Shown piece by piece: positions 21,331-44,700 of a DNA stretch of 64,000 nt. Both the position numbers and the translations under genes were made by a program. The notes under the pieces were generated by a model. It did no database searches. It worked only from the letters and a program-made list of their open reading frames with translations, and was not told the DNA's origin. The stretch's first letter is position 1. Each line of letters begins with the position of its first letter. This DNA comes from Planctomycetota bacterium (GTDB lineage: Bacteria > Planctomycetota > Phycisphaerae > UBA1845 > PWPN01), in assembly GCA_029550525.1 (NCBI GenBank), contig JAKPHF010000046.1:97476-161475 (forward strand), read 5' to 3'.

Positions 21331-22995
21331 TCACGGCTGCGGCCGCGAGGCCGCCGGCACGGGCTTGCCCGCGAGCAGAGCATCAAGCTGGCCCCGCACG
21401 AACTCCACTTTGTTGAACCCGATGTTGACCGCGGCAATCCGTGCATCCTTGCCGACGACGACGCAGGTGGGAAAACCATCCACCTGGAACATGCGGCCCA
21501 CGCCAAATCCGGTGTCGGCGGCAACTTCAAGGTGCGAGCCCAGGCTGGTCATCAACTGCGTGATCTCGGCCGCCGAGTATTCGCGCCGACCGCTGGGGTT
21601 CGTGGTCACCACGTTGACGAAGCGGATGCCCTTGTCCTGGTAGGCCGCGCGAATCTTCTCCAATTCCGGGATCTGCTTCTTGCAGAATCCGCAAGCGGGT
21701 GAGACGAAGTTGAGCACGGTGACCTTGCCCACGAGATCGGCACTGCCGATGGGCCGGCCGTCGAACGTGTCGAGCGAGAACGCCGGCGCGGGCTTGCCGA
21801 CCAGCAACTCGGCGGGACGAATCCGCGGCGTGGCCGGCTGGGTTTGAGCCGCCAAGTTGGCCGGCGCCGGATTCTGCCCCGGCGGCGGATAGATGCGAGC
21901 CTGGAGCGTGGGCAACTCCGAATCATCTGTCTCCACGGTCAGCACGCGGCCCTCGGCAGGAATGACCGCGCCGGCCGGAACATCGACCTGGATCCGGAAA
22001 GCCTTGCCCGGCGACCGAGCATCAACGGTGGTCTTGAACGTCGCATCATCGACGCTGGCCTGCTTCACATTGACCAGGCTGGCCCCATAGTTGTTGAGCC
22101 AGAACTGCAGCGAGCCCTGGTTCTGCCCGGGCATGCTACGCGGCGAAGGCGTGAACCGGGTAGCCGACGGGTACAGGTCGAGCCGGTGGGGCACGCGGCC
22201 GGAAGCCTGCACGCGAAGGATTTTTTCTTCCTCTATGTTGGTTTGAAGATTGGCCACGACGCCCAGAAAACCGGGCTTGTACGGTGTGACCGTGGTGAAA
22301 CTGAGCTCGAACACCTTGCCCGGTTCCTTCTCGGTCAGTCCCACCTTGAACTGTTCGGACGCCAGCGGCTGAAGCTCGAGCTTCAGCGGCGTGTCGGTAT
22401 TGTTGCGGATTCTCACCACTTGCGTGATGGGTTCGTTGGTGATGATCGTCCCGAACGAGGCGGCAGCCGGCTGAATGTCGATCCGCTTGCGGAACGTGCC
22501 GACCAGTTGGAGCGTCAGGTTGGGCGTAACCGGATCGTTCGAGGCGATGTTGATCTTCTTGGGAGCGATACGACCGTTGAGCCCCGTGGTCTTGAGCCCG
22601 AACAGGAACTGCCCGGACTGGCCCGGTTGAATGACTTTCGGATAATCGCCAACGGTCGTGCAACCACAATCCACACGGACGCTGCGGATTTCCAGCGGCG
22701 CGTTGCCACGGTTGTGGATCTCGAAGGTCTGCTGGACGTCGGAGCCGACCCACACGTCGCCGAAGTCGTGCTCGGTTTTCTCAACGTGGATGACAGGCGC
22801 AGGCCGGTCGGCCGCCGGTTGCGTCGCGGTAGGTTGACCGGCGGTGGATTGTGCGGCGGCCGACGGCACGTCGCCCGTCTGAGCCGTGCTCTGGGCGAAC
22901 GTCATGCTGGCCAAGGCAAGGCCGACCGATAGCCCGTAAGTGAAGACGGCCGGGAAACGCACGAATGCTCCTGATCCCTCGATGACCTGCCGCAT
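21331..22995 (-). CDS. Secreted DUF1573/Ig-like repeat protein with C-terminal TlpA-like thioredoxin
   Basis: Signal peptide, HDFG...F.I.N.GNAPL.I..V..DCGCT (DUF1573), further Ig-like beta domains, then PAFSL...NFVSPACGFCK...GFPT redoxin. Confidence 0.8.
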   Translation of the reverse strand: MRQVIEGSGAFVRFPAVFTYGLSVGLALASMTFAQSTAQTGDVPSAAAQSTAGQPTATQPAADRPAPVIHVEKTEHDFGDVWVGSDVQQTFEIHNRGNAPLEIRSVRVDCGCTTVGDYPKVIQPGQSGQFLFGLKTTGLNGRIAPKKINIASNDPVTPNLTLQLVGTFRKRIDIQPAAASFGTIITNEPITQVVRIRNNTDTPLKLELQPLASEQFKVGLTEKEPGKVFELSFTTVTPYKPGFLGVVANLQTNIEEEKILRVQASGRVPHRLDLYPSATRFTPSPRSMPGQNQGSLQFWLNNYGASLVNVKQASVDDATFKTTVDARSPGKAFRIQVDVPAGAVIPAEGRVLTVETDDSELPTLQARIYPPPGQNPAPANLAAQTQPATPRIRPAELLVGKPAPAFSLDTFDGRPIGSADLVGKVTVLNFVSPACGFCKKQIPELEKIRAAYQDKGIRFVNVVTTNPSGRREYSAAEITQLMTSLGSHLEVAADTGFGVGRMFQVDGFPTCVVVGKDARIAAVNIGFNKVEFVRGQLDALLAGKPVPAASRPQP

Positions 22996-23116
22996 ATGAA
23001 TCTCCTCGGGCCAGTGTGGGGAGCGCCCGGCAGTTCCGGGCGGAACGGACCATTATAAAGCTCCGCCAATCGTCCGTGAAACGTGCAATCTCCTCCAGAC
23101 TCGCCAGCCGCCGCCC

Positions 23117-23614
23117 TCACGAGGTGGCCGGCTGCCCCCCGGCAGAGGACGTTGACCCTTTTCCAAGGGCATCGTCCAGAAGTGCGACGATCTTCTCCTC
23201 GGCTTCGAGCATCGCCTGGCGGGTCCGCTCGCTGAGTATGTCGCCGAAATCCCAGTCGTATCCCCGAATGCCCACCAGCCAGGCCTCGGGCACATTGAGA
23301 TGCATGGCGGCGGTGAGTCCCAATAGCACGTCGGGCGGACAATGATGTGTGTCAAGACCGCCCGTTTGGGCGGGCAGCAGGCGCCCGAACGTCACATCCG
23401 CTCCGTCCTCGTGGGCGTGAGCGTCCACGAAGATGGCTAGCCGGCAGTGGTGCAGATCATCCACCAGTTCGGGACCGAGCTGGTGATACTCCTGCACGAC
23501 TACGTCCGATACGCCCGCGTAGCGCTCGGCCAGCCGTTCGGCCAGAACCAGCGCCGAGCCGTCGTCGCGACGTCCCATGTTGCCCCAGGCGATGATGCGA
23601 ATGGGTTGAGACAC
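23117..23614 (-). CDS. hoxW: [NiFe]-hydrogenase maturation protease
   Basis: WGNMGRRDDG, QLGPEL, IFVDA, DTHH. Directly follows the large subunit. GTG start estimated. Confidence 0.88.
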   Translation of the reverse strand: MSQPIRIIAWGNMGRRDDGSALVLAERLAERYAGVSDVVVQEYHQLGPELVDDLHHCRLAIFVDAHAHEDGADVTFGRLLPAQTGGLDTHHCPPDVLLGLTAAMHLNVPEAWLVGIRGYDWDFGDILSERTRQAMLEAEEKIVALLDDALGKGSTSSAGGQPATS

Positions 23615-23672
23615 GGTCGAAAGTCCCGGCGCGGGCAAATGGGTACAGGGCGGCGCGGCGAGAAACGCCCGA

Positions 23673-25100
23673 TCATCCCCGCGCGAGCACGTCGATGACG
23701 TTTCCCGACGCATCCAGCAGTTCGATCCGCAGCGGCATCTGGCCGATGGCGTGCGTGCTGCACGACAGACACGGATCGTAGCAACGGATGGCCGCCTCGA
23801 CCTTGTTGAGCATGGGCTCGGTCAGGTTGGCGCCGTCCACGTGGCGCAGCGCGACGTCCATGACGGCCTTGTTCATGGCGTAGTTGTTCTGACCGGAAGC
23901 GACGATGAGGTTGACCCGCTCGATCCCTCCGCTCTCGTCCACCATGTAATGATGGAAGAGCGTGCCCCGCGGCGCTTCGATCACGCCGATACCCTCGGGC
24001 AGAATCTGGTAGCTCTCGGCGATAAGGTCGTCGCCGCAAATGTCGGCGTGGTTGAGCAGTTGCTCGACGCGCTCGATGCCGAACAGGATCTCGACCAGCC
24101 GGGCGTAGTGGTAGTACATCGAGCCTTCGACTTTGCCGCCGCCGTTGAGTTGGCGGAAGGTCTCCAGTTCCCGGTTGGCCTCGGGCGTACCGGTGCTGTC
24201 GCACACATTGAGCCGAGCCAGCGGGCCCACGCGATACGAGCCCTCGGGATAGCCGAGCGGCCGATAGAACGGGAACTTCAGGTACGAGAAGTCCTCGGTG
24301 GCTTCGGCGATCAGCGACAGATAGCTGTTGGGATCGTACAGATCCTCGAGCAGTTCGCCGGACGGGCTCATCATCCGCAGCAAGCCGTCATAGTGCTCGA
24401 GCTTGCCCTCGGGAGTGACCAGGCCCATGTAGTTGGTAGGGAAGCTCGCGAATGTGTCCACGAACTCGCGGTTGGCCTCGTAGTAGCCGAGCAGCAATTT
24501 GATGCCGGCCCGCGTGATTTCCTTGGCTTCGGGCACGCCCTGAAGCAGCCGGTCGCGATCCTCGACCTTGAGAGAGCGGTTCATGCCGCCCGGCACGCAG
24601 ACGTCGGGATGGATCTTGCGCCCCCCCACCGCGGCGATGACTTCCTGGCCGAACTGCCGCAGCCGGATACCCTGCCGGGCAATCTCCGGGTTGGCCGAAA
24701 TCACGCCGAAAATATTGCGCTTCTCGGGCGGACAATCGAACCCCAGGAGCAAATCGGGCGACGACAGGTGGAAGAAGCTCAGGGCGTGCGACTGGATCAT
24801 CTGGCCCATGTGCATGAGCTCGCGCAGCATGCGGGCGGTCGGCGTGGGCTGCACGCCGCAGATGGCGTCCACCGCTTTGGCCGCGGCCAAGTGGTGGCTC
24901 ACCGGACAGATGCCGCAGATGCGCTCGGTGAGTGTCGGCATCTCCGAAAAATGCCGCCGCTCGCAGAACTTCTCGAAGCCCCGGAACTCCACCACGTGAA
25001 AGCGAGCCGCCGTTACCTTGCCGGACTCGTCCAGGTGCACGGTCACACGGCCATGCCCCTCGACGCGGGTAACGGGATCGATCTTGATTACGCGAGACAC
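23673..25100 (-). CDS. hoxH: [NiFe]-hydrogenase large subunit (group 3, HoxH/HydL type)
   Basis: TRVEGHG, L1 ERICGICPVSH, EAPRGTLFHHY, L2 RCYDPCLSCSTH, followed by a cleavable C-terminal tail. Confidence 0.95.
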   Translation of the reverse strand: MSRVIKIDPVTRVEGHGRVTVHLDESGKVTAARFHVVEFRGFEKFCERRHFSEMPTLTERICGICPVSHHLAAAKAVDAICGVQPTPTARMLRELMHMGQMIQSHALSFFHLSSPDLLLGFDCPPEKRNIFGVISANPEIARQGIRLRQFGQEVIAAVGGRKIHPDVCVPGGMNRSLKVEDRDRLLQGVPEAKEITRAGIKLLLGYYEANREFVDTFASFPTNYMGLVTPEGKLEHYDGLLRMMSPSGELLEDLYDPNSYLSLIAEATEDFSYLKFPFYRPLGYPEGSYRVGPLARLNVCDSTGTPEANRELETFRQLNGGGKVEGSMYYHYARLVEILFGIERVEQLLNHADICGDDLIAESYQILPEGIGVIEAPRGTLFHHYMVDESGGIERVNLIVASGQNNYAMNKAVMDVALRHVDGANLTEPMLNKVEAAIRCYDPCLSCSTHAIGQMPLRIELLDASGNVIDVLARG

Positions 25101-25124
25101 TCTAGCACCTCAACTCCGTTGAGC

Positions 25125-25220
25125 AATGCCGAAATCCGAATGACGAATGACGAAAAAGCTGTGAGCTATGAGCCGGAGGAAAAATTCGTCATTCGTCATT
25201 CTGGCTTCGTCATTCGGATC
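25125..25220. repeat. Inverted 7-mer repeat array (AATGACG)n ... (TTCGTCA)n between hydrogenase genes
   Basis: ATCCGAATGACGAATGACGAA ... TTCGTCATTCGTCATTC..TTCGTCATTCGGAT. The same family recurs at 44975 and 56371. Confidence 0.75.
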
Positions 25221-25766
25221 TTAGTCGTAAGCCAGCGCGACCTTCTTCTCCGCCGGCTGTCCGGTCAGCAGGCCCGAAACCGCAGCCCAAATCGCCTCGG
25301 GACTGGGCGGACACCCCGGAATCCACGCATCCACCTTCACGCATTCGTGGATGGGCAGCACTTTGGGCAGCAGCTTGGGCACTTCAACCGTCGGCACCTC
25401 GCCGAAGGCCGTGCTCTCCACTTCCACATACGCCCGCTCGAGCACTTCCTCATTGGAAAACTGGTTACGCAGCATGGGCACGCAACCGAAGCCCGCACAG
25501 TCGCCCAGCGAGACCAGGACCTTGGCCTTGGCCCGCAGGTGTTTGAGCACTTCGAGGTTCTCCTCGTTGGCCACGCTGCCTTCGACCAGCCCGATGTCGC
25601 ATTCCGGGATGTCCTTCACGTCGGCGATCGGCGAGGCGACCACGTCGGCGAGCCGAGCCAGGTCGATCAGCTTTTCATCCAGGTCAAGAAACGACATGTG
25701 GCAACCCGAGCAGCCGCACAGCCACACGGTTGCAATCCGTTTCCTGCCGGTGTTGTTCTCACTCAT
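25221..25766 (-). CDS. hoxY: [NiFe]-hydrogenase small subunit (HoxY/HydS type, single proximal cluster)
   Basis: WLCGCSGCHMS, VEGS, GDCA, IPGCPP. About 181 aa, no Tat leader. Confidence 0.93.
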   Translation of the reverse strand: MSENNTGRKRIATVWLCGCSGCHMSFLDLDEKLIDLARLADVVASPIADVKDIPECDIGLVEGSVANEENLEVLKHLRAKAKVLVSLGDCAGFGCVPMLRNQFSNEEVLERAYVEVESTAFGEVPTVEVPKLLPKVLPIHECVKVDAWIPGCPPSPEAIWAAVSGLLTGQPAEKKVALAYD

Positions 25767-25782
25767 CTCGCATCTCCACAGG

Positions 25783-25895
25783 GCCGTGAGCCATGGGCTC
25801 AAGCTGTGTGCTATGAGCCGTGGGCTATGAGCCATTGCTCCGGCTCACCGCTGACAGCCGAAAGCTGACAGCCGAGAGCTGATAGCTGAGAGCTC
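25783..25895. repeat. 7-mer repeat arrays (GCTRTGA/GCCRTGR and GCTGANA types)
   Basis: GCTATGAGCCGTGGGCTATGAGCC and GCTGACAGCCGAAAGCTGACAGCCGAGAGCTGATAGCTGAGAGC. Similar arrays at 15551 and 45341. Confidence 0.7.
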
Positions 25896-25904
25896 TCACA
25901 CTTC

Positions 25905-28004
25905 TCATTCTTCCACCATCTTCTCGAGACCCGACAGGTCGATCGGCTTTTCCTTGGGCTGGCACGGGACCATATGGCCATCGGCCAGGTGGCGGATCGT
26001 CTCGGGAATGTCGGGAGCGGACCACCCACAGTAAGGTCCGCGCCAGGTCTTGGCCAGCGACTCGAAGAACGCCACCTCGTCCACGCAGTACGGCGCCGGA
26101 TCCATCAGCCGCGTGCTCTTCTGCACGCGACCCTCCAGGTTCACGAACGTGCCCTCCCGCTCGGCCCAACTGGCCGTCGGAATCACCACGTGGGCGATGT
26201 CCATGACGTCGTGCTCGCGAGCGATCATGGCCACCACGAAGCTCACCGTCCGCAGCCGCTCCATCCAGTCGCGTTCCCAGGTGGGCTCCTCGTCGCCGAG
26301 CACCACGAAGGCGACGTCGGCGCTCTGCGGCTCGAGCATCCGGATATCCACGCCAGCCGGGCCGAGCAGCCGTGCCCCGGCGCTGTTGGCGCCCATGGAC
26401 AGTTCCATCAGCCGCCACCGCCCGGTGGGTGTCTTCTGCCGGCACGCCTTGACCAGGTTCATGGCCGCGGTGATGCCGGCCGAGCCACGGCGGGTGATGC
26501 CCCGGCCGCAGAGGATCATCGGACTCTTCGCGTTAGCGTACAGCTCGGCCGCCCGGCGGATGTCGGCCGCGGGCACGCCCGCCTGCCGCGTGATCTCGTC
26601 GTCGTCCAGCGCCCGCAGCTTCTTCTCGAGCTCCGGCGGCAGCGTCAGCTTGGCCCGGCCCATCTCCCACAGGTACTTGAGCATGGCCGCCAGCACCACC
26701 GTGTCCTTGCCCCGCTCGATCTGCAGGCTGATGTCCGTCCAGTCGCTGAGCCACGTGTGCCGCGGGTTCACCTTGACCAGCTTGGCCTTGCGATGCAGCA
26801 CGCCCCGCCGCACGTACGAGGCGATCACGCCATGCGATCGCTCGAGGTTGCAGCCCAGCAACAGGAACATGTCCGACTCGTCGAGGTCATTCAGACCGGC
26901 CAGCGGAGCCAAGCGGTTGTCCAGGTCGAGGGCCTCCCGCACGCCGGCGGCATCGGCTCGGTCGACGATCGACCACCGAGGGCTGCCCACCACGCGAGTG
27001 ATGAAGCTCTGACAGGCCGCCAGCGTCTCCAGCGGCAGCCGCGGGCTGAACAGACCAATGACCCGCGACGGATCATGGTGAATGGGAGCGGTGCTCAGGC
27101 GATTCGCGCATTCGCGCACGACCTCGTTGAGCGAACGCTTGATCCACTGGGCGCCGCGGCGAGCCTTGATCTCATCGATTCTGCCTCGCTTGGGGTTAAC
27201 CAGGCCGAAACGGCCACGCTCGCAGAGCACGCAGTTGCCGTTGGGTCCGCCGGCCGACGTCACGCTGCCGATCTGGCGGTGCCGCACGGACGCGTTGATC
27301 CGGCATCCCACGCCGCAACTGGGGCAGATGGTCTCCGTCAGCTCCAGCGGCAGCCGGCCTTGCCAGTGGGCGCTACGCTTTTCGAACAGAGCCCCCGTCG
27401 GGCAAACCGTCACGCACGTGCCGCACGATACGCACGACGACTCGCCCAGCGGCACACCCTCGTCGGCGATGAGCAGCGTCGCTGAGCCGCGGTGATCGAG
27501 ATCCAGCACGTGCGCCCCCACCCACTGGTCGCACGCCCGGATACACCGCGTGCACAAAATGCAGCGGTTGTGGTCCAGCGCGATCCGCGGATGCGAGTTG
27601 TCCACCGGCAGTTGCGGGAAGAGGTAGTCGTACCGCACATGGTCCATGTGGTGCTCGTACGCCGCGGTCTGCAGCTCGCAATTGCCGCTCCGCGGGCAGA
27701 ACGGGCAGATGTGATTGCGCTCGCCGAAGATGAGCTCCAGCGTCTGGCGGCGCAAATCCTCCAGCAGCGGCGTGTGCGTGCGGATGACCATGTTGTTCTC
27801 GGCCGGCGTCGTGCAGGCCGGAACGGGCCGGCGCTGGCCCTGGATCTCCACGATGCACAAGCGGCACGCTCCGATGTCCTTGAGCCCATCGTAGTGACAG
27901 AGCGTGGGGACGTGGATGCCGTTCGCCCGGCAGACCTCCAGGATGGTGGGGCCGGACTCGAGCGTCAATTCCTGGCCGTTGATGGTAACGCGAATCTCGC
28001 TCAT
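25905..28004 (-). CDS. NuoG/HydA-like FeS subunit (long HoxU with a molybdopterin-oxidoreductase-like C-terminal domain)
   Basis: [2Fe-2S] PTLC..ACRLC..PAC, His-ligated HICPFCPRSGNC, CILCTRCIRAC, CVSCGTCVTVCP, extra CPSCGVGC..LCERG, and the C-terminal P.ASWAEREGTFVNLEGRVQ. 699 aa. Confidence 0.88.
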   Translation of the reverse strand: MSEIRVTINGQELTLESGPTILEVCRANGIHVPTLCHYDGLKDIGACRLCIVEIQGQRRPVPACTTPAENNMVIRTHTPLLEDLRRQTLELIFGERNHICPFCPRSGNCELQTAAYEHHMDHVRYDYLFPQLPVDNSHPRIALDHNRCILCTRCIRACDQWVGAHVLDLDHRGSATLLIADEGVPLGESSCVSCGTCVTVCPTGALFEKRSAHWQGRLPLELTETICPSCGVGCRINASVRHRQIGSVTSAGGPNGNCVLCERGRFGLVNPKRGRIDEIKARRGAQWIKRSLNEVVRECANRLSTAPIHHDPSRVIGLFSPRLPLETLAACQSFITRVVGSPRWSIVDRADAAGVREALDLDNRLAPLAGLNDLDESDMFLLLGCNLERSHGVIASYVRRGVLHRKAKLVKVNPRHTWLSDWTDISLQIERGKDTVVLAAMLKYLWEMGRAKLTLPPELEKKLRALDDDEITRQAGVPAADIRRAAELYANAKSPMILCGRGITRRGSAGITAAMNLVKACRQKTPTGRWRLMELSMGANSAGARLLGPAGVDIRMLEPQSADVAFVVLGDEEPTWERDWMERLRTVSFVVAMIAREHDVMDIAHVVIPTASWAEREGTFVNLEGRVQKSTRLMDPAPYCVDEVAFFESLAKTWRGPYCGWSAPDIPETIRHLADGHMVPCQPKEKPIDLSGLEKMVEE

Positions 28005-28078
28005 AACCTTGTCAGTGGCCGATCCGCCGTTTATCAGTCATAGGCGGAAACCGGCCACATCACTCCTTCCAGTCACAC

Positions 28079-29962
28079 CTACTGCTTGAGGACCGCATCG
28101 AACCGGCACACCTCGAAGCACTCGCCGCAGTGGACGCACCCGTCCGTCTCGATCCAATACTTGCGCTTGTCGTCGAACTTGTGGATGATCGCCGCGGGGC
28201 ACGCGCGAGCGCACAATCCGCAGCCGGTGCACTTGTCGACGTCGATGCTGTAACGCAGGAGCTGACGGCACACGCCGGCCGGGCAGCGATGGTCGCGAAT
28301 GTGCGCCTCGTACTCCTCGCGAAAGTGCTGCAGCGTGCTGCGGATGGGATTGGGCGCGGTCATCCCCAAGCCGCACAGGCTGGCCATGGCGGTCACGCCG
28401 GCCAGGCCTTCCAGCCGCTCGAGTTCGTCGGGCCGAGCTTCGCCCCGCGTGATACGGGTGAGCATGTGCAGCATCTGCCGTGTGCCGATGCGGCACGGCG
28501 GACACTTGCCGCACGATTCGTCCACGCAGAAGTCCATGAAAAACCGGGCGACGTCCACCATGCACGAGCTGTCGTCCATGACGATCAGACCGCCCGAACC
28601 CATGATGGAGCCGATGGCCTGCAGCGAGTCGAAGTCCAGCGGCGTGTCCAGATGCTGGGCGGGAATGCAACCGCCCGACGGGCCGCCGGTCTGAGCCGCC
28701 TTGAACGTGCGGCCGTTGGGCACGCCTCCGCCGATGTCGAACACCAGTTGGCGCAGGCTCGTGCCCATGGGCACTTCGACCAGACCCGTGTTGCGAATCT
28801 TGCCGGCCAGAGCGAACACCTTGGTGCCCGGGCTTTTGGGCGTGCCGATCTGGCTGAACCATTTTCCGCCGTTGCGGATGATGGGCGGCACGTTGGCGTA
28901 CGTCTCGACGTTATTGATGATCGTCGGCTTGCCGTACAAGCCCGACTGCGTGGGATACGGTGGACGGGGCTGAGGCATGCCGCGGCGGCCCTCGACCGAG
29001 GCCATCAGCGCGGTTTCCTCGCCGCACACGAACGCGCCAGCTCCCACGCGGATCTCGATATCGAAGCAGTAGTCCGTGCCCAGAATGCGTTCGCCGATCA
29101 GATCCTTGTCGCGGGCCTGACTGATCGCGGTCTGTAACCGCTTGATGGCCAGCGGATACTCGGCCCGCACGTAGATGAAGCCTTTGCTGGCCCCCGTCGC
29201 GTAACCGGCAATAAGCATGCCTTCCAGCACGCGATGCGGATCGCTTTCCAGGACGCTTCGGTCCATGAAGGCGCCGGGGTCCCCCTCGTCGGCGTTGCAG
29301 ATCACGTACTTGGTCGGGCCGGGAGCGGCCGCCAGCATCTGCCACTTAACGCCCGCGGAGAACCCGCCGCCGCCCCGCCCTCGCAGGCCGCTCGCCAGCA
29401 GCTCTTCCACCACTTGCTTGGGGGCCATGCCGCCCAATGCCTTCTGCAAGGCGAGATAGCCGTCGCGAGCGATGTACTCGTCGATGTTCTGCGGGTCGAT
29501 GAGGCCGGAGTTCTCCAGCACGACCTTGAGCTGGTGCTTGAAGAAGGGCATCTCGGCAGCCGTGCGATAGGGCTGCCCGTCCTCGGCCTTGTGGAGCAGA
29601 TCGGTCACGATCTTGCCGTCGCGCAAATGCTCTTCGACGATCCGCTTGACGTCCTTCTCCGTCACCTTGACGTACAGGACGGCATCGGGCATCACCTGCA
29701 CGACCACGCCAAGGTCGCAGCAGCCCACGCAGCCCGTCTCGATGAGCTTGACGTACTCGCGCAGGCCGCGCTGACCCAGGACCTCCCGAAACGCGGTGGC
29801 CACGCTCGCGCAACCGCAACTGACACACGCTCCGCCCGCACAGACCAGGACCTCCCGATAGGCGCACGGCGCATCGGGCCGACTCTCCGGCGCCTTCCCC
29901 AGCCGCAGAGCGAGCGACGCTTTCGCTTGCTCCCGCCACTCGTACAGTTCCTTGAGCGTCAT
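28079..29962 (-). CDS. hoxF: NADH/FMN-binding diaphorase subunit (HoxF/HydB/NuoF type) with C-terminal 2x[4Fe-4S]
   Basis: SGLRGRGGGGF, NADEGDPGAFMDR, GAGAFVCGEETAL, GGPSGG, ESCGKCPPCR, HIRDHRCPAGVC, CTGCGLCARACP, CVHCGECFEVC. Confidence 0.93.
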   Translation of the reverse strand: MTLKELYEWREQAKASLALRLGKAPESRPDAPCAYREVLVCAGGACVSCGCASVATAFREVLGQRGLREYVKLIETGCVGCCDLGVVVQVMPDAVLYVKVTEKDVKRIVEEHLRDGKIVTDLLHKAEDGQPYRTAAEMPFFKHQLKVVLENSGLIDPQNIDEYIARDGYLALQKALGGMAPKQVVEELLASGLRGRGGGGFSAGVKWQMLAAAPGPTKYVICNADEGDPGAFMDRSVLESDPHRVLEGMLIAGYATGASKGFIYVRAEYPLAIKRLQTAISQARDKDLIGERILGTDYCFDIEIRVGAGAFVCGEETALMASVEGRRGMPQPRPPYPTQSGLYGKPTIINNVETYANVPPIIRNGGKWFSQIGTPKSPGTKVFALAGKIRNTGLVEVPMGTSLRQLVFDIGGGVPNGRTFKAAQTGGPSGGCIPAQHLDTPLDFDSLQAIGSIMGSGGLIVMDDSSCMVDVARFFMDFCVDESCGKCPPCRIGTRQMLHMLTRITRGEARPDELERLEGLAGVTAMASLCGLGMTAPNPIRSTLQHFREEYEAHIRDHRCPAGVCRQLLRYSIDVDKCTGCGLCARACPAAIIHKFDDKRKYWIETDGCVHCGECFEVCRFDAVLKQ

Positions 29963-30480
29963 TTGTATGCCTTCAAAAGCTTCTTGATCTCGTTGCTCTT
30001 CAACTGCCCGTGCACGCGGTCACCCACCATGGCCACCGGAGCCAGCCCACACGCGCCCACGCAGCGAGCGCAGCGAAGACTGAACCGTCCGTCGGCCGTG
30101 GTCTGGCCGTTGCGGATTCCCAATTCCTTCTCGAATGCCCGCAACACCGTTTCAGCCCCCCGCACGTAGCAGGCCGTCCCCGTGCAGACGTTGATCGTGT
30201 GCTTGCCCTGCGGCACGCGGCTGAAGAACGAGTAGAACCCGATCACGCCGTACACCTGGCTGATGGGCAGCCGCAGCTCGTGGGCGATGTACCGGATGAC
30301 GTCCTCACGCAGGTAGCCGAACAGCTCCTGCGCCCGGTGCAGGATCTGGATGAGGGCGTCGGGCGCGCGGTCGTAGAAATCCATGGCCATCTGCAGTTCG
30401 GCGAACAGGGCCTGCTCATACGGCGCCGCCACCGCCCCGCTTCGGCTGATGCCCTGCTGAATGTTGCTCAGGCTCGTCAT
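29959..30480 (-). CDS. hoxE: [2Fe-2S] subunit (HoxE/HydC/NuoE type)
   Basis: LIQILHRAQELFGYL, VCTGTACYVRG, RCVGACGLAP. ATGA overlap with hoxF. Confidence 0.93.
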   Translation of the reverse strand: MTSLSNIQQGISRSGAVAAPYEQALFAELQMAMDFYDRAPDALIQILHRAQELFGYLREDVIRYIAHELRLPISQVYGVIGFYSFFSRVPQGKHTINVCTGTACYVRGAETVLRAFEKELGIRNGQTTADGRFSLRCARCVGACGLAPVAMVGDRVHGQLKSNEIKKLLKAYK

Positions 30481-31068
30481 TGTGTACGTCCTCAGTCAGG
30501 ACTCCGTTACATCTTTCACAAATTGCTGCGAAGGCAATCCATCCCCCGCGTGTGCTCGTTCAGTCCCCTGCTGTATATCGGGTAATTCCAGTCCGTCAGT
30601 ATCGGCGACTTTGAACCGCCGCGAGCGGCCGGCGGCAGGAAGGACCCACAAAACGGTAAGTCTAAAGCCGCACACGATATCTGGCAAGACAAGCCCATCC
30701 GCGGCGCTTCCACCGGGCCGATAACCGGCCCGGCTCCGATCAGCACTCACTCGGAACTAGGCAACCCCCATGCCGAACCCGCGTCGGCCGGTTTCCGGAG
30801 CATCTGCCCCACAAAGCCTCGTGTGCAGGTGAAGGAAATTCGGGATCTGTTCACGAGCAGGTCGTTTCTCGAGGCTTGGTTCGTTAATCGGGCGCGAAGC
30901 CGCCTGGCTGAGGAACGAACGGCTTGCCGTGGCGGCGCTGCCGTTGGCCATTTGCCGAGGCGCTCGGGTCATCTGCCCCGCCCTCTCCGCACGCGCGTGG
31001 AGGACCGATCGCGAGGCTGGCGCGAGGTCCGTCCTATTCGGACGCCACAAAAGACGGTGCTTGGATGC

Positions 31069-31506
31069 TTACTTGGCGTTGGAGTTCTTGGCGGCTTCGA
31101 TCTCGTGCTCTTTGGCCACCAGTTGGGCGATGGTGGTGTCGTCGAGCAGGCTGCGGAATGCTTCCTTGACCGGCCGCCACTGATCGTGCATGGCACAGGG
31201 GTTCTCGTCCGTGCACTTGGCATGGCCGAGCGGGCAGCGGCTGCGGGCAGGGATATCGTCGAATGGCTTGACCACGTCGATCAACTTCAACTTGTTGGCC
31301 CGCCGCTTCAGCCGGAAGCCGCCCCCGATGCCTCGGGTCGACGTGAGCACACCCGCATGGACAAGATCCCGCAGGACCTTGGAGAGGTATTTGTTGGGGA
31401 TGTGGCCCTTGCTGGAGATCTCACGGGCCAGAACCGGCCGCTCTTCCTCGACCTTGGCAATGGCGACCACCGCTCGAAGTGCGTATTCAGCAGTCTTGCT
31501 CAGCAC
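31069..31506 (-). CDS. Rrf2-family transcriptional regulator with three Cys
   Basis: SKTAEYALRA, YLSKVL..L..AG, STRGIGGGF.L, CPLG..KC....PC.MH. Confidence 0.93.
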   Translation of the reverse strand: MLSKTAEYALRAVVAIAKVEEERPVLAREISSKGHIPNKYLSKVLRDLVHAGVLTSTRGIGGGFRLKRRANKLKLIDVVKPFDDIPARSRCPLGHAKCTDENPCAMHDQWRPVKEAFRSLLDDTTIAQLVAKEHEIEAAKNSNAK

Positions 31507-31860
31507 GGTGAAACCCTCTCAGACCGGCAACCGATGCTTGGTTATTTGCCCATATTCAGGTAGAACTATAGCGCACGGGCCTGTACCGAGCAAGAGGCTT
31601 TCTACATTAATCTGATTTTTTCATCTTTAAAGCGTCGCCGGGGCGGCACAACACGACCTCGCGAGATTGCACCAGGGTTGTCCCGTATCCGAATCAGACC
31701 CCGAAGCGGCTTGGCTTTGCGCAGACGCGAGCCGATGGTAAGGGAGCTCCAGCCTGTATGGGTGAACCGTATTCCGTACTCCGGCCTGATGGAGAACCGG
31801 CACCCGCCTCGAGATCGAAACACTATTCCAACCGACGCCTTTCGACGTCAGGAGGAGAAG

Positions 31861-32628
31861 ATGTCTGCTGAGCTGCTGCGAAATGAACTCATCGTCATCC
31901 TGGGTCTGGCCGTGACTGCGGTGGCGAGCGAACCGGCTACGCAACCGGCCAGCCGCCCCGCCGCGATCGACTGGGCGAAGCACTACTACCGGCGGGTCGA
32001 GCAGTTCGAACGGGAAAACCGCGAGAAGCGAAACATCGTCCTCGTCGGCTCGTCACACATCGAAGGCTTCATGCAGGATCGCCTCCTGCCCGGGCGGAGG
32101 ATCGTCAACCGCGGCATCTCGTCAGATCGAATCGGGATCGGCGAGCGCGGCGTCCTGCACCGGTTGGAGCAGTCCGTATTCGACTGCAACCCCGGCATCG
32201 TCTTTCTCGAAAACGGTGTGAATGACCTGGGTGAGTTGTGGCGGCACGGCACGCCCAGCCTCGATGAGATCGAAGCCTGCTACCGCGAGGTCGTCCGCCG
32301 CATCCGCGAGCGGCGTCCCGACGTGAAGCTCGTCATCGTCGGCCTGTTCCCCACGCGCGACCGCTTCGCCGGACTGAAGCCACTGATCGTGCAGTTCAAC
32401 GCACGACTCGAGAAGATCGCGGCTGATTTCGGCTGCCCCTTCATGGACGTGTATGCACCCTTTGCTGACGATCAGGGCCTGCTCCGGCAAGACCTGTCGC
32501 GTGATGGCCTGCACCTCACCGATGCGGGCTATCGGCTCTGGGCCGACATGATCGATCGGACGCTGACGCAACTCGGTGCAGACCAGTTGAGCGCTGCCGG
32601 TTCACCCACCAGCCGTTCTGCCCGATAG
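31861..32628 (+). CDS. Secreted SGNH/GDSL hydrolase
   Basis: AGGAG RBS, signal peptide, block I VGSSH, NRGISSD, GVND, DGLH. Confidence 0.85.
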   Translation: MSAELLRNELIVILGLAVTAVASEPATQPASRPAAIDWAKHYYRRVEQFERENREKRNIVLVGSSHIEGFMQDRLLPGRRIVNRGISSDRIGIGERGVLHRLEQSVFDCNPGIVFLENGVNDLGELWRHGTPSLDEIEACYREVVRRIRERRPDVKLVIVGLFPTRDRFAGLKPLIVQFNARLEKIAADFGCPFMDVYAPFADDQGLLRQDLSRDGLHLTDAGYRLWADMIDRTLTQLGADQLSAAGSPTSRSAR

Positions 32629-41728: not shown

Positions 41729-44700
41729 ATGCGGTCGCACGCGATCTCGTGTGTTCTGTCAGCCGAAATCATGTTTTTCGCTTCATCGCTGGCCGCGACG
41801 TCAGCCGAGATCGGGCGGATTCCCAACGGCTTCGATGCAGCCCCCTTCGGCGAGCGATTCACCGAAGACGACGGAAAGATCGTCGGAATTCGTTGGGGCG
41901 AGCCGCGCAAGATCCGCCAGCTGATCCTTACGTTCAAGCACGACGTCGATCCGGCAAGCATCCGCGACGCGATTCGAGTCGAGTACTGGCACCACAATTG
42001 GAACGGCAAGGCCGACCCGGTGGCCGACGAACTCGACGCGGGAGCGACCGGCTGGGCGGATGTCGACGACTGGTACAACGGCAACTGGCGAAAGGCCGAG
42101 ACGATCCTGGCGGCGAACAACCGGGAAGTCGTCATCCACTTTCCCCCTACCGGCCCCAGCGAAGGCTACAAGAATCCGCACATACCGGGCGTGGCGTATC
42201 GCAAGACGCTCAAGATCCGGCTGGCGTCCGACAGTCCGCTGCCGGAGTTGGCAAAGCTCGAAGCCATCACCGAAGCGGTCTGTCGGCCGTTAACCGTGCG
42301 CATCTCGTTCGACGAGCCGGCCGACGCCGCCTTCAAATCGGAACCGGGTCTGCATGGCCGGTTTGAAGCCTTCAACGGCAGTGTGAACGCGATCAGGAAA
42401 CCCGGCGATTCCGCGGTCGTGGACGTGAATGATTTCCCGCTTGAGGGTGAATTGCTGGCCGACGTGACCATGACCGTCGATCCGGTCGACTCCCGGTATG
42501 ATCGCACCATCGTGACGCTGCGGGCGGGCGTTCGCTCGTTTTCATTCGCCGCCGATGAGGTGGCCCGGGGCGATCGCATCTTCGTGGACGATCTGGGCGT
42601 TCTGGTCACTCGCGGCGACGACGAGATGAACGTCCGCGCGTATCGGCAGCACATCAAGCAGTTGCCCGGCAAGACCGTATACCACCGCATCTTCGAGCAT
42701 CCCGAGCAAACGCTGGACCGGGCCTGGAACGACATGCCCCTCAAGCGGCAGATCATGTTCGTCCACGGTCTGCCCGGCGACCGCAACGTCATGGGCCAGG
42801 GCGCCGGCGGCGACATCCGCGTCAGCGGCCACGGCCGATGGTTCGCGCTGAACCCCAGCCCGCGGGACAGCGCCCGCCAGAAGTGGGACGGCCAGATGCT
42901 GTGGTTCGACTTCGGTCTGCCCGATCAGGACAAACGGGCGGGCCGCGAACTGAAGGACGGCTACCTTCCGCTCCTGCGCTCCTGCTGGCAGGACGGGCCC
43001 ATCTTCTACGAACAGCTCACCGTGCTCGACACGCTGACCGGCAAGCTCGACGACATCCCGCTCGACGAGCCCACCGTACTGCTCATGCAACTGCGGGTAC
43101 TCAATACGACCGAGACACAGCCCGGCACGGCGAGGCTTCGGCTGATCGCCCGCGTCAGTAATGCCGATCGCGAACACCCGTTGGTGCTCCAGGGCAACCG
43201 CGTCTTCAACCCCGCCGGCCCGGGTGAGCAGCGATTCCGCTACCTCTTCGAGACCCACGGCAAGGGCCGAACCGCCTCGGACGGCAAGGGGATCGACTGG
43301 TCGCTCGAACTGGCCCCCGGCGAGTCGCATAAACTCTTTGTTGCGATCCCATCCATTACGCTGGAGACTGATGAGGAGATCGAGCCGCTCGCCCACCGCG
43401 ACTTCCATGCCGATGCCGAGCGAATCTGTCGCTTCTGGCGCGAGCTCACCGAGCGCGGCACGCAGATCATCACACCCGAGCCGTGGCTCAACGACTTCCA
43501 CAAGGCTCACCTGCGGCACATGCTGATCAACTGCCAGAAAGAGCTCGACTCCGACCGCCTGCACGCCCACGTGGGCACGTTCTATTACGGCATGTATCCC
43601 AACGAGTCGGCCATGATGGTCAGCGATCTCGATCGCCGCGGCTATCACGACGAAGCCCGCCGCAACATCGATTCGATGCTGCACTACCAGGGCACGGTCC
43701 AGTTCGCCGGTACCTACACCAGCAAGGAAGGCCTGCTCTACGGCGACGGCGGACACGAAACGGGCGACTACAACAAGTCGCACGGCTACATCCTGTGGCT
43801 CATCGCACACCATTGGCGGATGACCCGCGACCGGGTCTGGCTCGAGGCTTCCGCCGACAAGATCGTCAAGGCCTGCGAGTGGATCGTGCACGAGCGGCGG
43901 ACCACCATGAAGACCCGTTCCGACGGCAGCAAGCCCATCGAGTACGGCTGCCTGCCCGCCGGCGGCCTGGAGGACGTGCAGGACTTCTGGTTTTGGCTGG
44001 CCACCAACGCGGCCACCGATTGGGGCTTCCAGGCCGCTGCCGCGGCCCTGGCCGACATCAATCACCCCCGAGCCGGTGAACTGCAGAAAGAAGCGGCCGC
44101 CTATCACCACGACTTCATGGCCGCCATGACCGAGGCCCGTATCCGCACCCCCGTGGTGCGGCTCCGCGACGGCCGCTACGTCCCCAAGTACCCCAGCGAG
44201 CTGTACACCCGCGGTCGGGCCTACGGCTGGCTCCGCGAAGTGCTCGAAGGCTCCCTTTTCCTGCCCGCCTACCAGTTGCTCGACCCGAACTCGCCCGAGG
44301 CCCGCTGGATCATGCAGGACTACGAGGACAACCTCTACATCTCGCGACAGTACAGCTACGACATCCCCAACTTCGGCCGGTTCTGGTTTTCGCGCGGCGG
44401 CTTCTGCATGCAGGCCTGCCTGCTCGACAGCCCGCTGCCCTACCTCTGGCGGGATGAGATCAAGCACTACGTGCGGGCCTATTTCAACTCGTTCGCCTCG
44501 GGCTTCTACCCCGAGACTCGCATGCTGTGCGAGCACGCCCTGCCCGAGCTCGGCTACTGGCGCGGCGACCACTTCAAATCGTCCGACGAGGCTCAGTCCA
44601 CCTACTGGCTGCGACTCATGTTCGTCCGCGAGGAGGGCTCGGACCTGTACCTCGGCCAGGCCATCCCCCGTTACTGGCTCGCCGACGGCCGTGGCGCGAG

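What the first reader, a model, noticed from the sequence alone, without database searches (positions are those of the whole stretch)
23117..30480. Putative electron-bifurcating HydABC-SL type [NiFe]-hydrogenase in a planctomycete
Seen: one strand carries E/C, F/B, long U/A, small subunit, large subunit and protease genes. The flavoprotein is 627 aa with an N-terminal thioredoxin-like Cys cluster (CAGGAC..GCVGCC), a HxxxxxCPAGVC site and a C-terminal 2x[4Fe-4S] domain. It has ADEGDPGAFMDR and GGPSGG. Known: ordinary cyanobacterial or Cupriavidus HoxF lacks the C-terminal ferredoxin domain. That domain and these residues characterise HydB of bifurcating HydABC enzymes, and the pentameric layout matches NiFe-HydABCSL of Acetomicrobium mobile. 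Inference: this enzyme couples H2 to both NAD and ferredoxin, suggesting a fermentative or syntrophic lifestyle. I am not aware of such an enzyme being characterised in this phylum.
Basis: partly seen in the sequence, partly recalled or inferred. Interest (0 to 1): 0.8.

Follow-up and report, generated by a model that had tools for sequence, protein, structure and literature searches.

The report
Bifurcating-type NiFe hydrogenase operon, Phycisphaerae
This six-gene operon of an uncultured sludge planctomycete encodes a close counterpart of the one characterised nickel-iron hydrogenase that couples hydrogen to both NAD and ferredoxin, so it is a new host for a known enzyme type rather than a new kind of enzyme.

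Summary
Window 23117-30480 (minus strand) holds hydC-hydB-hydA-hydS-hydL-hydD with the stated lengths and motifs.

Four of the five structural subunits match the Acetomicrobium mobile NiFe-HydABCSL structure 7T2R first or nearly first. HydA, HydS and HydL hit it best. HydB scores 791 bits against it and 801 against an FeFe-HydB, while non-bifurcating homologues score 412 or less. All iron-sulfur ligand motifs are present, including the His-bearing B2 site and the AFM and GGPSG flavin motifs.

A classical Hox operon in the same genome gives the reverse pattern, with 5XF9 as best hit.

The closest relatives (71-82% HydL identity) are all Phycisphaerae or Planctomycetales MAGs with the same gene order.

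The genome also has PFOR, HypD and HypF, four further HydCB modules, heme-copper and bd oxidases. The host therefore looks facultative, not strictly fermentative.

Contigs from RNA libraries hold the whole operon.

Verdict: a new member of a known kind, and bifurcation is inferred, not shown. This scan's notes hold 46 findings in at least 41 other genomes that mention such NiFe/HydABCSL-type hydrogenases.

The parts
29959..30480 (-). hydC (173 aa): NuoE/HoxE-like subunit with a thioredoxin-like [2Fe-2S] site (C1)
   Evidence: PF01257 at E 1.1e-50. The best solved-structure hits are HydC/NfnC subunits of bifurcating enzymes: 8a6t_C 139.7 bits, 7t2r_C 121.1 bits. A C-x4-C...C-x3-C motif lies at 99-144. 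The gene overlaps hydB by 4 nt.
28079..29962 (-). hydB (627 aa): FMN/NAD(H)-binding flavoprotein with an N-terminal [2Fe-2S] site (B5), B1, the His-bearing B2 site and a C-terminal 2x[4Fe-4S] domain (B3/B4)
   Evidence: Pfam hits PF01512, PF10589, Fer4 families at 572-623 and PF01257 at 32-111. Solved-structure scores are 7q4v_B 801 bits and 7t2r_B 791 bits, against 412 or less for non-bifurcating homologues. Ligand positions are C41/C46/C78/C82; C484/C487/C490/C530; C467/T505/H554/C560/C565; and the two motifs 578-588 and 609-619. AFM and GGPSGG are present.
25905..28004 (-). hydA (699 aa): long NuoG/HoxU-like connector with motifs for clusters A1-A5, a molybdopterin-oxidoreductase-like C-terminal domain and no H-cluster domain
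   Evidence: Pfam hits PF13510, PF10588, PF22117/PF12838, PF04879 (222-267) and PF00384. Neither PF02906 nor PF01568 appears at E <= 0.001. The best solved-structure hit is 7t2r_A (692 aa) at 316.7 bits over residues 1-636, and the next scores 205.9. CPSCGVGC at 227-234 and C258/C261 were read.
25221..25835 (-). hydS (204 aa as listed, possibly 181 aa from Met24): small subunit with ligands for the proximal [4Fe-4S] cluster only
   Evidence: PF01058 at E 7.6e-30. The best solved-structure hit is 7t2r_E (179 aa) at 164.1 bits. Motifs CGCSGC 40-45, GDC 111-113 and GCPP 174-177 are present. Similarity to orthologues starts at residues 28-31 in 3 of 5 relatives' loci and at residue 6 in the other two.
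23673..25100 (-). hydL (475 aa): [NiFe] large subunit
   Evidence: PF00374. The best solved-structure hit is 7t2r_D (475 aa) at 600 bits, against 5xf9_D 453.5 and 5odc_F 405.9. The motifs RICGICPVSH 60-69 and DPCLSCSTH 442-450 are followed by a 25-residue tail of the kind the maturation protease removes.
23117..23713 (-). hydD: hydrogenase maturation endopeptidase
   Evidence: TIGR00072 at 56.7 bits, cut-off 47.45. It is conserved directly after hydL in planctomycete loci.
30481..31068 (-). 588-bp unannotated leader upstream of hydC (association tentative)
   Evidence: No Pfam family for its two small ORFs and no Rfam match. RNA-library contigs of three runs cross it without a break.
31069..31506 (-). 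Rrf2-family regulator gene on the same strand upstream; possible local regulator (association tentative)
   Evidence: PF02082 at E 3.9e-31. It lies on the same RNA-library contigs as the 5' end of hydC in X15, X16 and X17. It was not found beside the orthologous operons.

Best explanation
The operon encodes a cytoplasmic, heteropentameric, flavin-based electron-bifurcating/confurcating [NiFe]-hydrogenase of the NiFe-HydABCSL (NiFe-Bfu, type 3) kind, plus its maturation protease.

The mechanism below is taken from the A. mobile structure and is inferred here. HydL makes or splits H2. Electrons pass by S1-A3-A2-A1-B1 to the single FMN of HydB, where NAD(H) binds. [quoted passage not shown]

In the cell it most likely runs mainly as a confurcating H2-evolving valve. 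It would take NADH from sugar oxidation and reduced ferredoxin from the genome's pyruvate:ferredoxin oxidoreductase, and it can probably also run in reverse.

Shown here: gene content, order, homology, cofactor ligands, conservation in relatives, and presence in RNA libraries. Inferred: assembly, cofactor content, coupling, direction and partner ferredoxin.
For: Gene set and order C-B-A-S-L-D lie on one strand with gaps of -4 to 120 nt.

Solved-structure comparison: 7T2R (A. mobile NiFe-HydABCSL) is the best hit for HydA (316.7 bits, next 205.9), HydS (164.1) and HydL (600 against 453.5 for the non-bifurcating 5XF9). For HydB it scores 791 against a best of 801 for 7q4v_B, while non-bifurcating homologues score 412 or less.

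The B2 ligands named in PMC8880783 and PMC9304861 (C438, C476, H525, C531, C536) align to C467, T505, H554, C560 and C565. Thr at the second position is what those papers report for FeFe-HydB and for about two-thirds of BfuB sequences.

B1, B3/B4 and B5 cysteines, the C1 motif, the A1-A5 motifs and the NiFe motifs are all present. The AFM and GGPSG flavin-site motifs are present in the window, in 9 of 9 planctomycete orthologues and in the 1 Armatimonadota orthologue checked.

Internal control: the same genome's Hox operon has a fused HoxEF with TFK in place of AFM, no GGPSGG, no H-x5-C-x4-C and no C-terminal ferredoxin motifs, plus a 248-aa HoxU. Its best hits are 5xf9_A (381.9 bits) and 5xf9_D (599.9 bits).

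Trees: HydL falls in a 14-row all-Planctomycetota clade (SH-aLRT 100), apart from the short-HoxU clade that holds the genome's own HoxH. HydB falls in a 10-row planctomycete clade, inside a 48-row clade (99) that holds the genome's FeFe-linked HydBs and excludes its NuoF and HoxEF.

The genome has PFOR (1805.9 bits), HypF and HypD.

Contigs from four RNA libraries of three studies match the operon at 95% identity or more, mostly 99% or more. They bridge every gene junction, for example X15 record 6, 3484 nt over 25315-28798 with 0 differences.
Against: No biochemistry exists for this enzyme.

HydA is only moderately similar to A. mobile HydA (316.7 bits over about 640 residues).

The best solved-structure hit for HydC is an FeFe-enzyme HydC, not 7t2r_C.

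The SLBB domain of HydB scores below Pfam's cut-off (22.1 against 27).

No ferredoxin gene lies in the operon.

My trees contain no named characterised sequences. They are quick searches with SH-aLRT support only, and the genome's own HoxH and HoxEF rows were flagged as long branches.

RNA-library contigs cannot exclude carried-over DNA and show neither strand nor level.

The MAG has an estimated 5.89% contamination, so genes on other contigs (PFOR, hyp, oxidases, FeFe enzymes) may not all belong to the same organism.

The 2026 Hox preprint shows that sequence-based rules for who bifurcates are still in flux.
Confidence: 0.8

Rival explanations
1. It is a non-bifurcating NAD(H)-only soluble hydrogenase (a Hox/SH-like enzyme, group 3d). 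The extra clusters are structural or vestigial, so H2 is coupled to NAD+ alone.
For: HydS and HydL are homologous to HoxY and HoxH (5xf9_C 145 bits, 5xf9_D 453.5 bits). NCBIfam's best models for HydC and the N-terminal part of HydA are HoxE and HoxU, both below cut-off. In A. mobile the A4/A5 branch is itself thought to be non-functional (PMC8880783).
Against: HydB scores 791-801 bits against bifurcating HydBs and only 280 against 5xf9_A. All ligands of the low-potential branch C1-B2-B3/B4 are kept across 9 planctomycete orthologues, apart from an assembly defect at the C-terminus of L010. The genome already has a separate Hox operon of the short-HoxU type.
Confidence: 0.08
2. It is a bifurcating enzyme of the same build but with a different partner set or a different main direction. 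For example, it may act chiefly in H2 uptake to make reduced ferredoxin for biosynthesis. It may also use NADP(H) or a flavodoxin instead of NAD(H) and ferredoxin.
For: The A. mobile reaction is reversible (PMC8880783). The genome holds three FeFe-linked HydCB modules that could already serve H2 evolution. It also has oxidases that would allow H2 to be used as a fuel.
Against: The nucleotide-site motifs are identical to those of the NAD-linked enzymes. PFOR is present as a source of reduced ferredoxin. Nothing in the operon points to NADP.
Confidence: 0.1
3. HydA is an active molybdo- or tungstopterin enzyme, such as a formate dehydrogenase. The complex would then link formate and H2, like a soluble formate hydrogenlyase.
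For: The C-terminal two-thirds of HydA match PF00384 (91.2 bits) and PF04879. Formate dehydrogenase alpha subunits are the next-best solved-structure hits.
Against: There is no match to the molybdopterin dinucleotide-binding domain PF01568 at E <= 0.001. The best hit by far is A. mobile HydA, which carries only a [4Fe-4S] cluster (A5) there (PMC8880783). TIGR01591 scores 128.7 against a cut-off of 666.
Confidence: 0.02

Closest known systems
NiFe-HydABCSL (NiFe-Bfu, type 3 Bfu enzyme) of Acetomicrobium mobile, PDB 7T2R/7T30 (Feng et al. 2022, PMC8880783)
   Same: It has the same five subunits with nearly the same lengths: HydA 699 against 692 aa, HydL 475 against 475, HydB 627 against 597. HydA is long and lacks an H-cluster domain. 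HydS has a single cluster. HydB has the N-terminal [2Fe-2S] site, the His-bearing B2 site and the C-terminal 2x[4Fe-4S] domain. A maturation protease gene sits in the operon.
   Different: The fifth B2 ligand is Thr505 rather than Cys. Cys occurs in 6 of the 9 planctomycete orthologues. No HisK or HydP genes lie in the operon; an Rrf2 regulator sits upstream instead. The host is a 64% G+C Phycisphaerae MAG from sludge and digester habitats with oxidase genes, not a thermophilic fermentative Synergistetes bacterium. The HydA sequence is well diverged (316.7 bits).
Electron-bifurcating FeFe-HydABC (Thermoanaerobacter kivui 7Q4V/8A6T, Thermotoga maritima 7P5H)
   Same: The HydB/HydC core is shared. 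HydB's best solved-structure hit overall is 7q4v_B (801 bits) and HydC's is 8a6t_C. Thr occupies the semi-conserved B2 position, as in FeFe-HydB.
   Different: Here the catalytic site is a separate NiFe HydSL pair. HydA matches FeFe-HydA only over residues 1-211 and has no H-cluster domain.
NAD-reducing soluble [NiFe]-hydrogenase HoxFUYH (Hydrogenophilus thermoluteolus 5XF9) and cyanobacterial HoxEFUYH
   Same: The HydSL pair is homologous to HoxYH, and the FMN-B1-A1-A2-A3-S1-NiFe chain is the same.
   Different: [quoted passage not shown] The genome's own Hox operon shows exactly this and hits 5XF9 best. A 2026 preprint reports that Synechocystis Hox nonetheless bifurcates.
MvhADG-HdrABC (group 3c)
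   Same: NCBIfam's best models for HydL and HydS are VhuA and VhuG, both far below cut-off.
   Different: There are no Hdr or MvhD genes here. The genome has a separate Hdr-Mvh locus whose large subunit is 39% identical.

Membership tests
NiFe-HydABCSL / NiFe-Bfu (type 3 Bfu) | Genes for HydA, HydB, HydC, HydS and HydL together in one cluster | tested here: met
   Six co-directional genes have gaps of -4 to 120 nt. The same order is seen in planctomycete loci such as L012, L013, L015, L016 and L018-L021.
NiFe-HydABCSL / NiFe-Bfu (type 3 Bfu) | BfuB domain set used by Schut et al. 2022: FMN/NADH domain, SLBB, NuoF-type 4Fe-4S region and a ferredoxin-type 4Fe-4S domain (PMC9304861) | tested here: met
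   PF01512 scores 160.4 bits, PF10589 scores 110.6 bits, and Fer4 families cover 572-623. SLBB is weak at 22.1 bits against a cut-off of 27.
NiFe-HydABCSL / NiFe-Bfu (type 3 Bfu) | B2 site with its conserved His and three conserved Cys, and the fifth ligand Cys or Thr | tested here: met
   C467, T505, H554, C560 and C565 align to A. mobile C438, C476, H525, C531 and C536. Whether the site holds [2Fe-2S] or Zn is disputed in the literature.
NiFe-HydABCSL / NiFe-Bfu (type 3 Bfu) | B3/B4 (C-terminal 2x[4Fe-4S]), B5 (N-terminal [2Fe-2S]) and C1 in HydC | tested here: met
   Cys motifs lie at 578-588 and 609-619, at 41-82, and at 99-144 in HydC. They are invariant in orthologues except at the defective C-terminus of L010.
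NiFe-HydABCSL / NiFe-Bfu (type 3 Bfu) | HydA with clusters A1-A5 (A3 present) and no H-cluster domain | tested here: met
   Motifs lie at 36-64, 98-109, 148-158 and 191-201, and PF04879 covers 222-267. There is no PF02906 hit. The best solved-structure hit is 7t2r_A.
NiFe-HydABCSL / NiFe-Bfu (type 3 Bfu) | Small subunit with one cluster only, and a large subunit with the NiFe-binding Cys pairs | tested here: met
   HydS has about 181-204 aa and four ligand Cys, and 7t2r_E is its best hit. HydL carries RICGICPVSH and DPCLSCSTH.
NiFe-HydABCSL / NiFe-Bfu (type 3 Bfu) | Tightly coupled reaction: H2-dependent ferredoxin reduction only with NAD+, and H2 evolution only with NADH plus reduced ferredoxin | not testable with these tools
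   This needs enzyme assays. The property is described for A. mobile in PMC8880783.
NiFe-HydABCSL / NiFe-Bfu (type 3 Bfu) | Assembly of the five subunits (dimer of pentamers) | not tested
   The complex is about 2150 residues, over the 1000-residue limit of the complex predictor, so no job was sent.
Hox / soluble NAD-reducing hydrogenase (group 3d) | Short HoxU (about 240 aa), and HoxF without the B2-B5 clusters (PMC9304861) | tested here: not met
   HydA has 699 aa with a molybdopterin-like C-terminal domain. HydB has all the B2-B5 motifs. NCBIfam HoxE and HoxU equivalogs score below cut-off: 192.6 against 224 and 280.5 against 333.
HydDB class of the large subunit | Classifier assignment (3c, 3d or other) | not testable with these tools
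   HydDB is not available here. Solved-structure scores place HydL nearest 7t2r_D, then 5xf9_D, then Mvh.

The most novel reading that the evidence does not exclude
The NiFe-Bfu cassette may be a laterally moving module that one Phycisphaerae order picked up. It would serve there as a more oxygen-robust alternative to the FeFe-HydABC enzymes in habitats that swing between oxic and anoxic, such as activated sludge. The Cys/Thr switch at the fifth B2 ligand inside this clade may retune the low-potential branch for a different ferredoxin or direction.

Supporting hints: the distribution is patchy. Eight of 40 relatives have an orthologue of 63% identity or more. In a sample of 400 other genomes of the phylum, none reached E 1e-165 apart from two at 53-54% identity, which is well short of orthologue level. 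None of 7 flanking proteins was found near the orthologous operons. The genome has oxidase genes. Thr occurs in 4 and Cys in 7 of 11 sequences.
Probability: 0.15. Interest if true: 0.5.

Novelty: new member of a known kind. Interest (0 to 1): 0.3.

Why it matters
Only one NiFe-HydABCSL has been purified and solved. The 2022 family survey, which left out metagenomes, listed the NiFe type for Synergistetes and Halorhabdus only (PMC9304861, passages).

This operon and its relatives show the canonical five-subunit form in a mesophilic, polysaccharide-degrading planctomycete lineage of sludge and digesters. The same layout also appears in loci named Chloroflexota and Armatimonadota. It therefore widens the host range and supplies natural sequence variants, including Cys/Thr at the B2 site, for work on the debated Bfu mechanism.

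It also bears on H2 budgets in wastewater systems. One genome carries a NiFe-Bfu, three FeFe-linked Bfu-type modules, a Hox and an Mvh-Hdr.

It does not reveal a new mechanism.

Tried and rejected
- Rfam scan of 22800-31800 at E <= 0.1 gave 0 matches.
- The promoter and terminator scan gave 2 and 3 sites against 1.5 and 5.0 expected, which is not above chance.
- Seven proteins flanking the operon (Rrf2, DUF1573-redoxin, AlaRS, GDSL lipase and three small ORFs) were sought in the 80 related loci. There were 0 hits at E <= 1e-5, so no conserved neighbourhood exists beyond the six genes.
- Rnf: the rnfD model found only a below-cut-off match of 56.5 bits against 207, so Rnf was not found with this query.
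- RNA-library contigs left some bins of the 13-kb stretch without cover, for example 31718-32151 in all four runs. Holes in contig cover prove nothing and are not used.
- The short skips and loose ends inside hydB in X15 and X16 look like chimeric contigs over conserved HydB stretches. They were not followed up.
- Literature searches for Phycisphaerae with 'electron-bifurcating' + hydrogenase, 'bifurcating' + NiFe, or 'bifurcat' + hydrogenase returned 0 papers each. Phycisphaerae + hydrogenase returned 33 papers. I read passages of two (PMC11929135, PMC4897734), and neither describes this enzyme.
- A look-up of HydA by sequence in this scan's notes found nothing.
- No complex or structure prediction was run, because the complex exceeds the size limit and would pass by likeness to 7T2R anyway.
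- Percent identity to the 7T2R chains was not computed, because those sequences are not held as usable records. Bit scores are given instead.
- No named reference sequences (A. mobile, Halorhabdus, C. necator, Synechocystis) could be put in the trees.
- Supplementary tables and figures of PMC9304861, which list clade members, were not opened. They may list planctomycete Bfu entries that I did not see.


Full report
**What is there**

The minus strand of window 23117-30480 carries six ORFs:
- hydC, 29959-30480, 173 aa
- hydB, 28079-29962, 627 aa
- hydA, 25905-28004, 699 aa
- hydS, 25221-25835, 204 aa
- hydL, 23673-25100, 475 aa
- a protease gene, 23117-23713, 198 aa

The spacings are -4, 74, 69, 120 and -41 nt. 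Third-position G+C of 0.73-0.88 marks all six as real genes in this 64% G+C DNA.

Pfam and NCBIfam give these assignments:
- HydC: thioredoxin-like [2Fe-2S] (PF01257).
- HydB: a NuoF-type FMN domain (PF01512), the NuoF 4Fe-4S region (PF10589), a second PF01257-like stretch at 32-111, and 4Fe-4S dicluster families at 572-623.
- HydA: PF13510, PF10588, PF22117/PF12838, PF04879 and PF00384. It has no H-cluster domain (PF02906) and no PF01568.
- HydS: PF01058.
- HydL: PF00374.
- Protease: TIGR00072, 56.7 bits against a cut-off of 47.45.

Similarity of HydS to its orthologues begins at residues 28-31 in three of the five relatives' loci. In the other two it begins at residue 6. Similarity of the protease begins at residues 24-40 in four of the five. 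Their true starts may therefore lie downstream of the listed ones.

**Which enzyme it resembles**

I compared each subunit with all solved structures by sequence.
[quoted passage not shown] The next hit scores 205.9.
- HydL: best hit 7t2r_D (475 aa) at 600 bits. The non-bifurcating H. thermoluteolus enzyme 5xf9_D scores 453.5 and Mvh 5odc_F scores 405.9.
- HydS: best hit 7t2r_E at 164.1 bits.
- HydB: 801.2 bits against 7q4v_B (an FeFe-HydB) and 790.9 against 7t2r_B. All nine full-length hits at 639 bits or more are subunits of HydABC, Nfn or related Bfu-type complexes. The best non-bifurcating homologues reach only 411.9 (6vw7_B), 383.9 (Nqo1) and 280.3 (5xf9_A).
- HydC: best hits are HydC/NfnC subunits, with 8a6t_C at 139.7 and 7t2r_C at 121.1.

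**Defining residues**

Feng et al. (PMC8880783, passages) and Schut et al. (PMC9304861, passages) define the bifurcating core by clusters B1-B5 in HydB and C1 in HydC. Its hallmark is the B2 site, liganded in A. mobile by C438, C476, H525, C531 and C536. The His is described as present in nearly all BfuB sequences and absent from non-bifurcating homologues. C476 is replaced by Thr in FeFe enzymes and in about two-thirds of BfuB sequences.

In the alignment these positions correspond to C467, T505, H554, C560 and C565 of the window protein (checked). The other ligand motifs are also present:
- B5: C41, C46, C78, C82
- B1: C484, C487, C490, C530
- B3/B4: 578-588 and 609-619
- C1 in HydC: 99-144
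- A1-A4 in HydA: 36-64, 98-109, 148-158, 191-201
- Proximal-cluster cysteines of HydS
- RICGICPVSH and DPCLSCSTH in HydL

The A5 motif lies in the PF04879 stretch of HydA.

The AFM and GGPSG motifs are called signatures of bifurcating hydrogenases in a 2026 preprint (10.64898/2026.06.25.734504, passages). Both are present.

**An internal control**

The same assembly is G000, with 5.8 Mb, 82 contigs, 100% estimated completeness and 5.89% contamination. It holds a second group-3 operon on contig C70. That operon has a fused HoxEF (692 aa), a 248-aa HoxU, HoxY and HoxH, the last 51% identical to HydL.

Its HoxEF has TFK in place of AFM. It has no GGPSGG, no H-x5-C-x4-C and no C-terminal ferredoxin motifs. 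Its best solved-structure hits are 5xf9_A (381.9 bits) and 5xf9_D (599.9 bits), ahead of 7t2r. The two paralogous enzymes of one genome thus sort cleanly onto the two structurally characterised types.

A third locus on C81 is an Hdr-Mvh type.

**Trees**

I built a quick maximum-likelihood tree of 79 large subunits. Four of the 80 fetched loci were dropped as incomplete, and the window and the two paralogues from this genome were added. The window falls in a 14-row clade whose 13 named members are all Planctomycetota (SH-aLRT 100). The 16 loci with a short HoxU-like gene form a separate clade together with this genome's own HoxH (96).

In a tree of 56 HydB-like proteins (7 dropped as incomplete) the window lies in a 10-row planctomycete clade (100) that is sister to an Armatimonadota sequence (99). 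This sits inside a 48-row clade (99) that holds the genome's four other HydB paralogues and excludes its NuoF and HoxEF.

These trees have limits. They are quick searches with SH-aLRT support only. The Hox rows were flagged as long branches. No named characterised sequence could be included.

**Host and distribution**

Of 447 confirmed relatives in the species-representative genome collection, the best 80 were kept. All 13 with 71-82% identity are titled Phycisphaerae, Planctomycetales, Planctomycetaceae or Phycisphaeraceae MAGs. Nine of these show the full architecture, with a long HydA and a HydB carrying the C-terminal ferredoxin motifs. Two are cut or defective, and two lack the neighbouring DNA.

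Among 40 relatives of the genome, 8 have an orthologue of 63% identity or more. Six are in the same family and two are in other families of the order. In an even sample of 400 other genomes of the phylum, only 2 reached E <= 1e-165, both at 53-54% identity.

Over all 76 loci scored by architecture, the counts were:
- 22 with a long HydA plus a HydB carrying the C-terminal ferredoxin motifs. These are planctomycete, Chloroflexota and Armatimonadota loci.
- 16 with a short HoxU, 15 of them named Bathyarchaeota or Bathyarchaeia and one Chloroflexota.
- 6 with a HydB of about 1000 aa.
- 12 with a long HydA and another kind of HydB.
- 12 with a long HydA and no HydB on the locus.
- 8 with neither on the locus.

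The enzyme type is therefore common in uncultured anaerobes. This scan's notes hold 46 findings in at least 41 genomes that mention such NiFe/HydABCSL-type hydrogenases. Those are AI notes, used only as leads.

**Physiology**

The genome encodes:
- a nifJ-type pyruvate:ferredoxin oxidoreductase (1805.9 bits), HypF and HypD
- five matches to the [FeFe] H-cluster domain
- four further HydC-HydB pairs on contig C28, three of them beside an H-domain gene
- NuoEFG
- four COX1-family genes and a cytochrome bd oxidase

No Rnf was found above cut-off with the rnfD model. The window itself carries sulfatase, heparinase-like and GH38-like genes.

The likeliest role is a confurcating H2 valve during sugar fermentation. 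NADH and PFOR-derived reduced ferredoxin would be turned into H2, and the reaction should be reversible. The host looks facultative, not strictly fermentative or syntrophic. Because of the contamination estimate, genes on other contigs are attributed to the same organism with some reserve.

**Occurrence and RNA**

The 7.4-kb stretch is held nearly word for word by runs labelled activated sludge, anaerobic digester and biofilm metagenomes. Twenty rows hold it, 17 with at least half of the sampled words, from 15 studies. Five rows are flagged as possible sources.

Contigs from four metatranscriptome libraries of three studies lie on it at 95% identity or more, mostly 99% or more, and they bridge every gene junction. 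Three contigs run from hydC through the 588-bp leader into the upstream Rrf2 regulator gene. Contigs cannot show strand, ends or level, and DNA carry-over is not excluded. This is therefore suggestive of expression but no more.

**Literature**

The five papers that hold the term NiFe-HydABCSL and the passages I read do not report the NiFe type in Planctomycetes. Schut et al. name Planctomycetes only for Nuo-Bfu, and they excluded metagenomic data. PMC11406978 reports FeFe-type BfuABC homologues in Planctomycetota. Three searches combining Phycisphaerae with bifurcation terms returned nothing. Supplements of these papers were not opened.

[quoted passage not shown] That does not touch the assignment made here.

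**Verdict**

This is a canonical NiFe-HydABCSL operon in a Phycisphaerae MAG, a new member of a known kind. Family membership by sequence is about 0.9 likely. Actual NAD- and ferredoxin-coupled bifurcation is about 0.8 likely and is inferred, not shown. Interest is modest.

Noticed in passing
window 30481-31506: A 588-bp unannotated leader and an Rrf2-family regulator gene lie upstream of hydC on the same strand. RNA-library contigs of three runs cross from hydC through the leader into the Rrf2 gene. There is no Rfam match, and Rrf2 is not found beside the orthologous operons of relatives.
   Followed up: partly
HydB residue 505 (window about 28450); loci L010-L021, L017: The semi-conserved fifth ligand of the B2 site switches within one clade. 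It is Thr in the window, L010, L012 and L013. It is Cys in L015, L016, L018-L021 and in the Armatimonadota sequence L017.
   Followed up: partly
G000 contig C70 (L007:3429-17349): A second, classical Hox operon has HoxE and HoxF fused into one 692-aa protein. It lies directly downstream of a 1175-aa PAS/hybrid histidine kinase and is followed by a response-regulator gene.
   Followed up: partly
G000 contig C28 (about 33-37 kb, 264-268 kb, 379-385 kb, 445-451 kb) and C81 (L008): Four more HydC-HydB pairs lie on C28. Three sit beside [FeFe] H-domain genes, and two have HydB of about 1100 aa. C81 carries an Hdr-Mvh locus. One MAG thus carries about seven hydrogenase systems.
   Followed up: partly
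loci L023, L025, L036, L048, L049 and other Bathyarchaeia loci: These archaeal operons have a short HoxU-like subunit (about 235 aa). Their roughly 548-aa flavoprotein keeps H-x5-C-x4-C, and GGPSGG in the two checked (L023, L049), but has no C-terminal 2x[4Fe-4S] domain. This is an intermediate build between Hox and Bfu.
   Followed up: no
loci L018, L019, L021, L012: In some planctomycete relatives, HypB-like (cobW/HypB/UreG), HypC and an AIR-synthase-like (HypE-like) gene lie directly upstream of hydC. In the window's genome the HypD and HypF matches are on another contig.
   Followed up: no
window 21331-22995 (-): A 554-aa protein directly downstream of the operon joins a DUF1573/OS_HP2-like Ig domain to a redoxin/AhpC-TSA thiol-disulfide domain. 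The OS_HP2 (seleno)protein model scores 82.3 bits, below its cut-off of 100.
   Followed up: no
window 41729-44968 (+): A 1079-aa ORF with gene-like codon bias has no Pfam family at E <= 1e-5.
   Followed up: no
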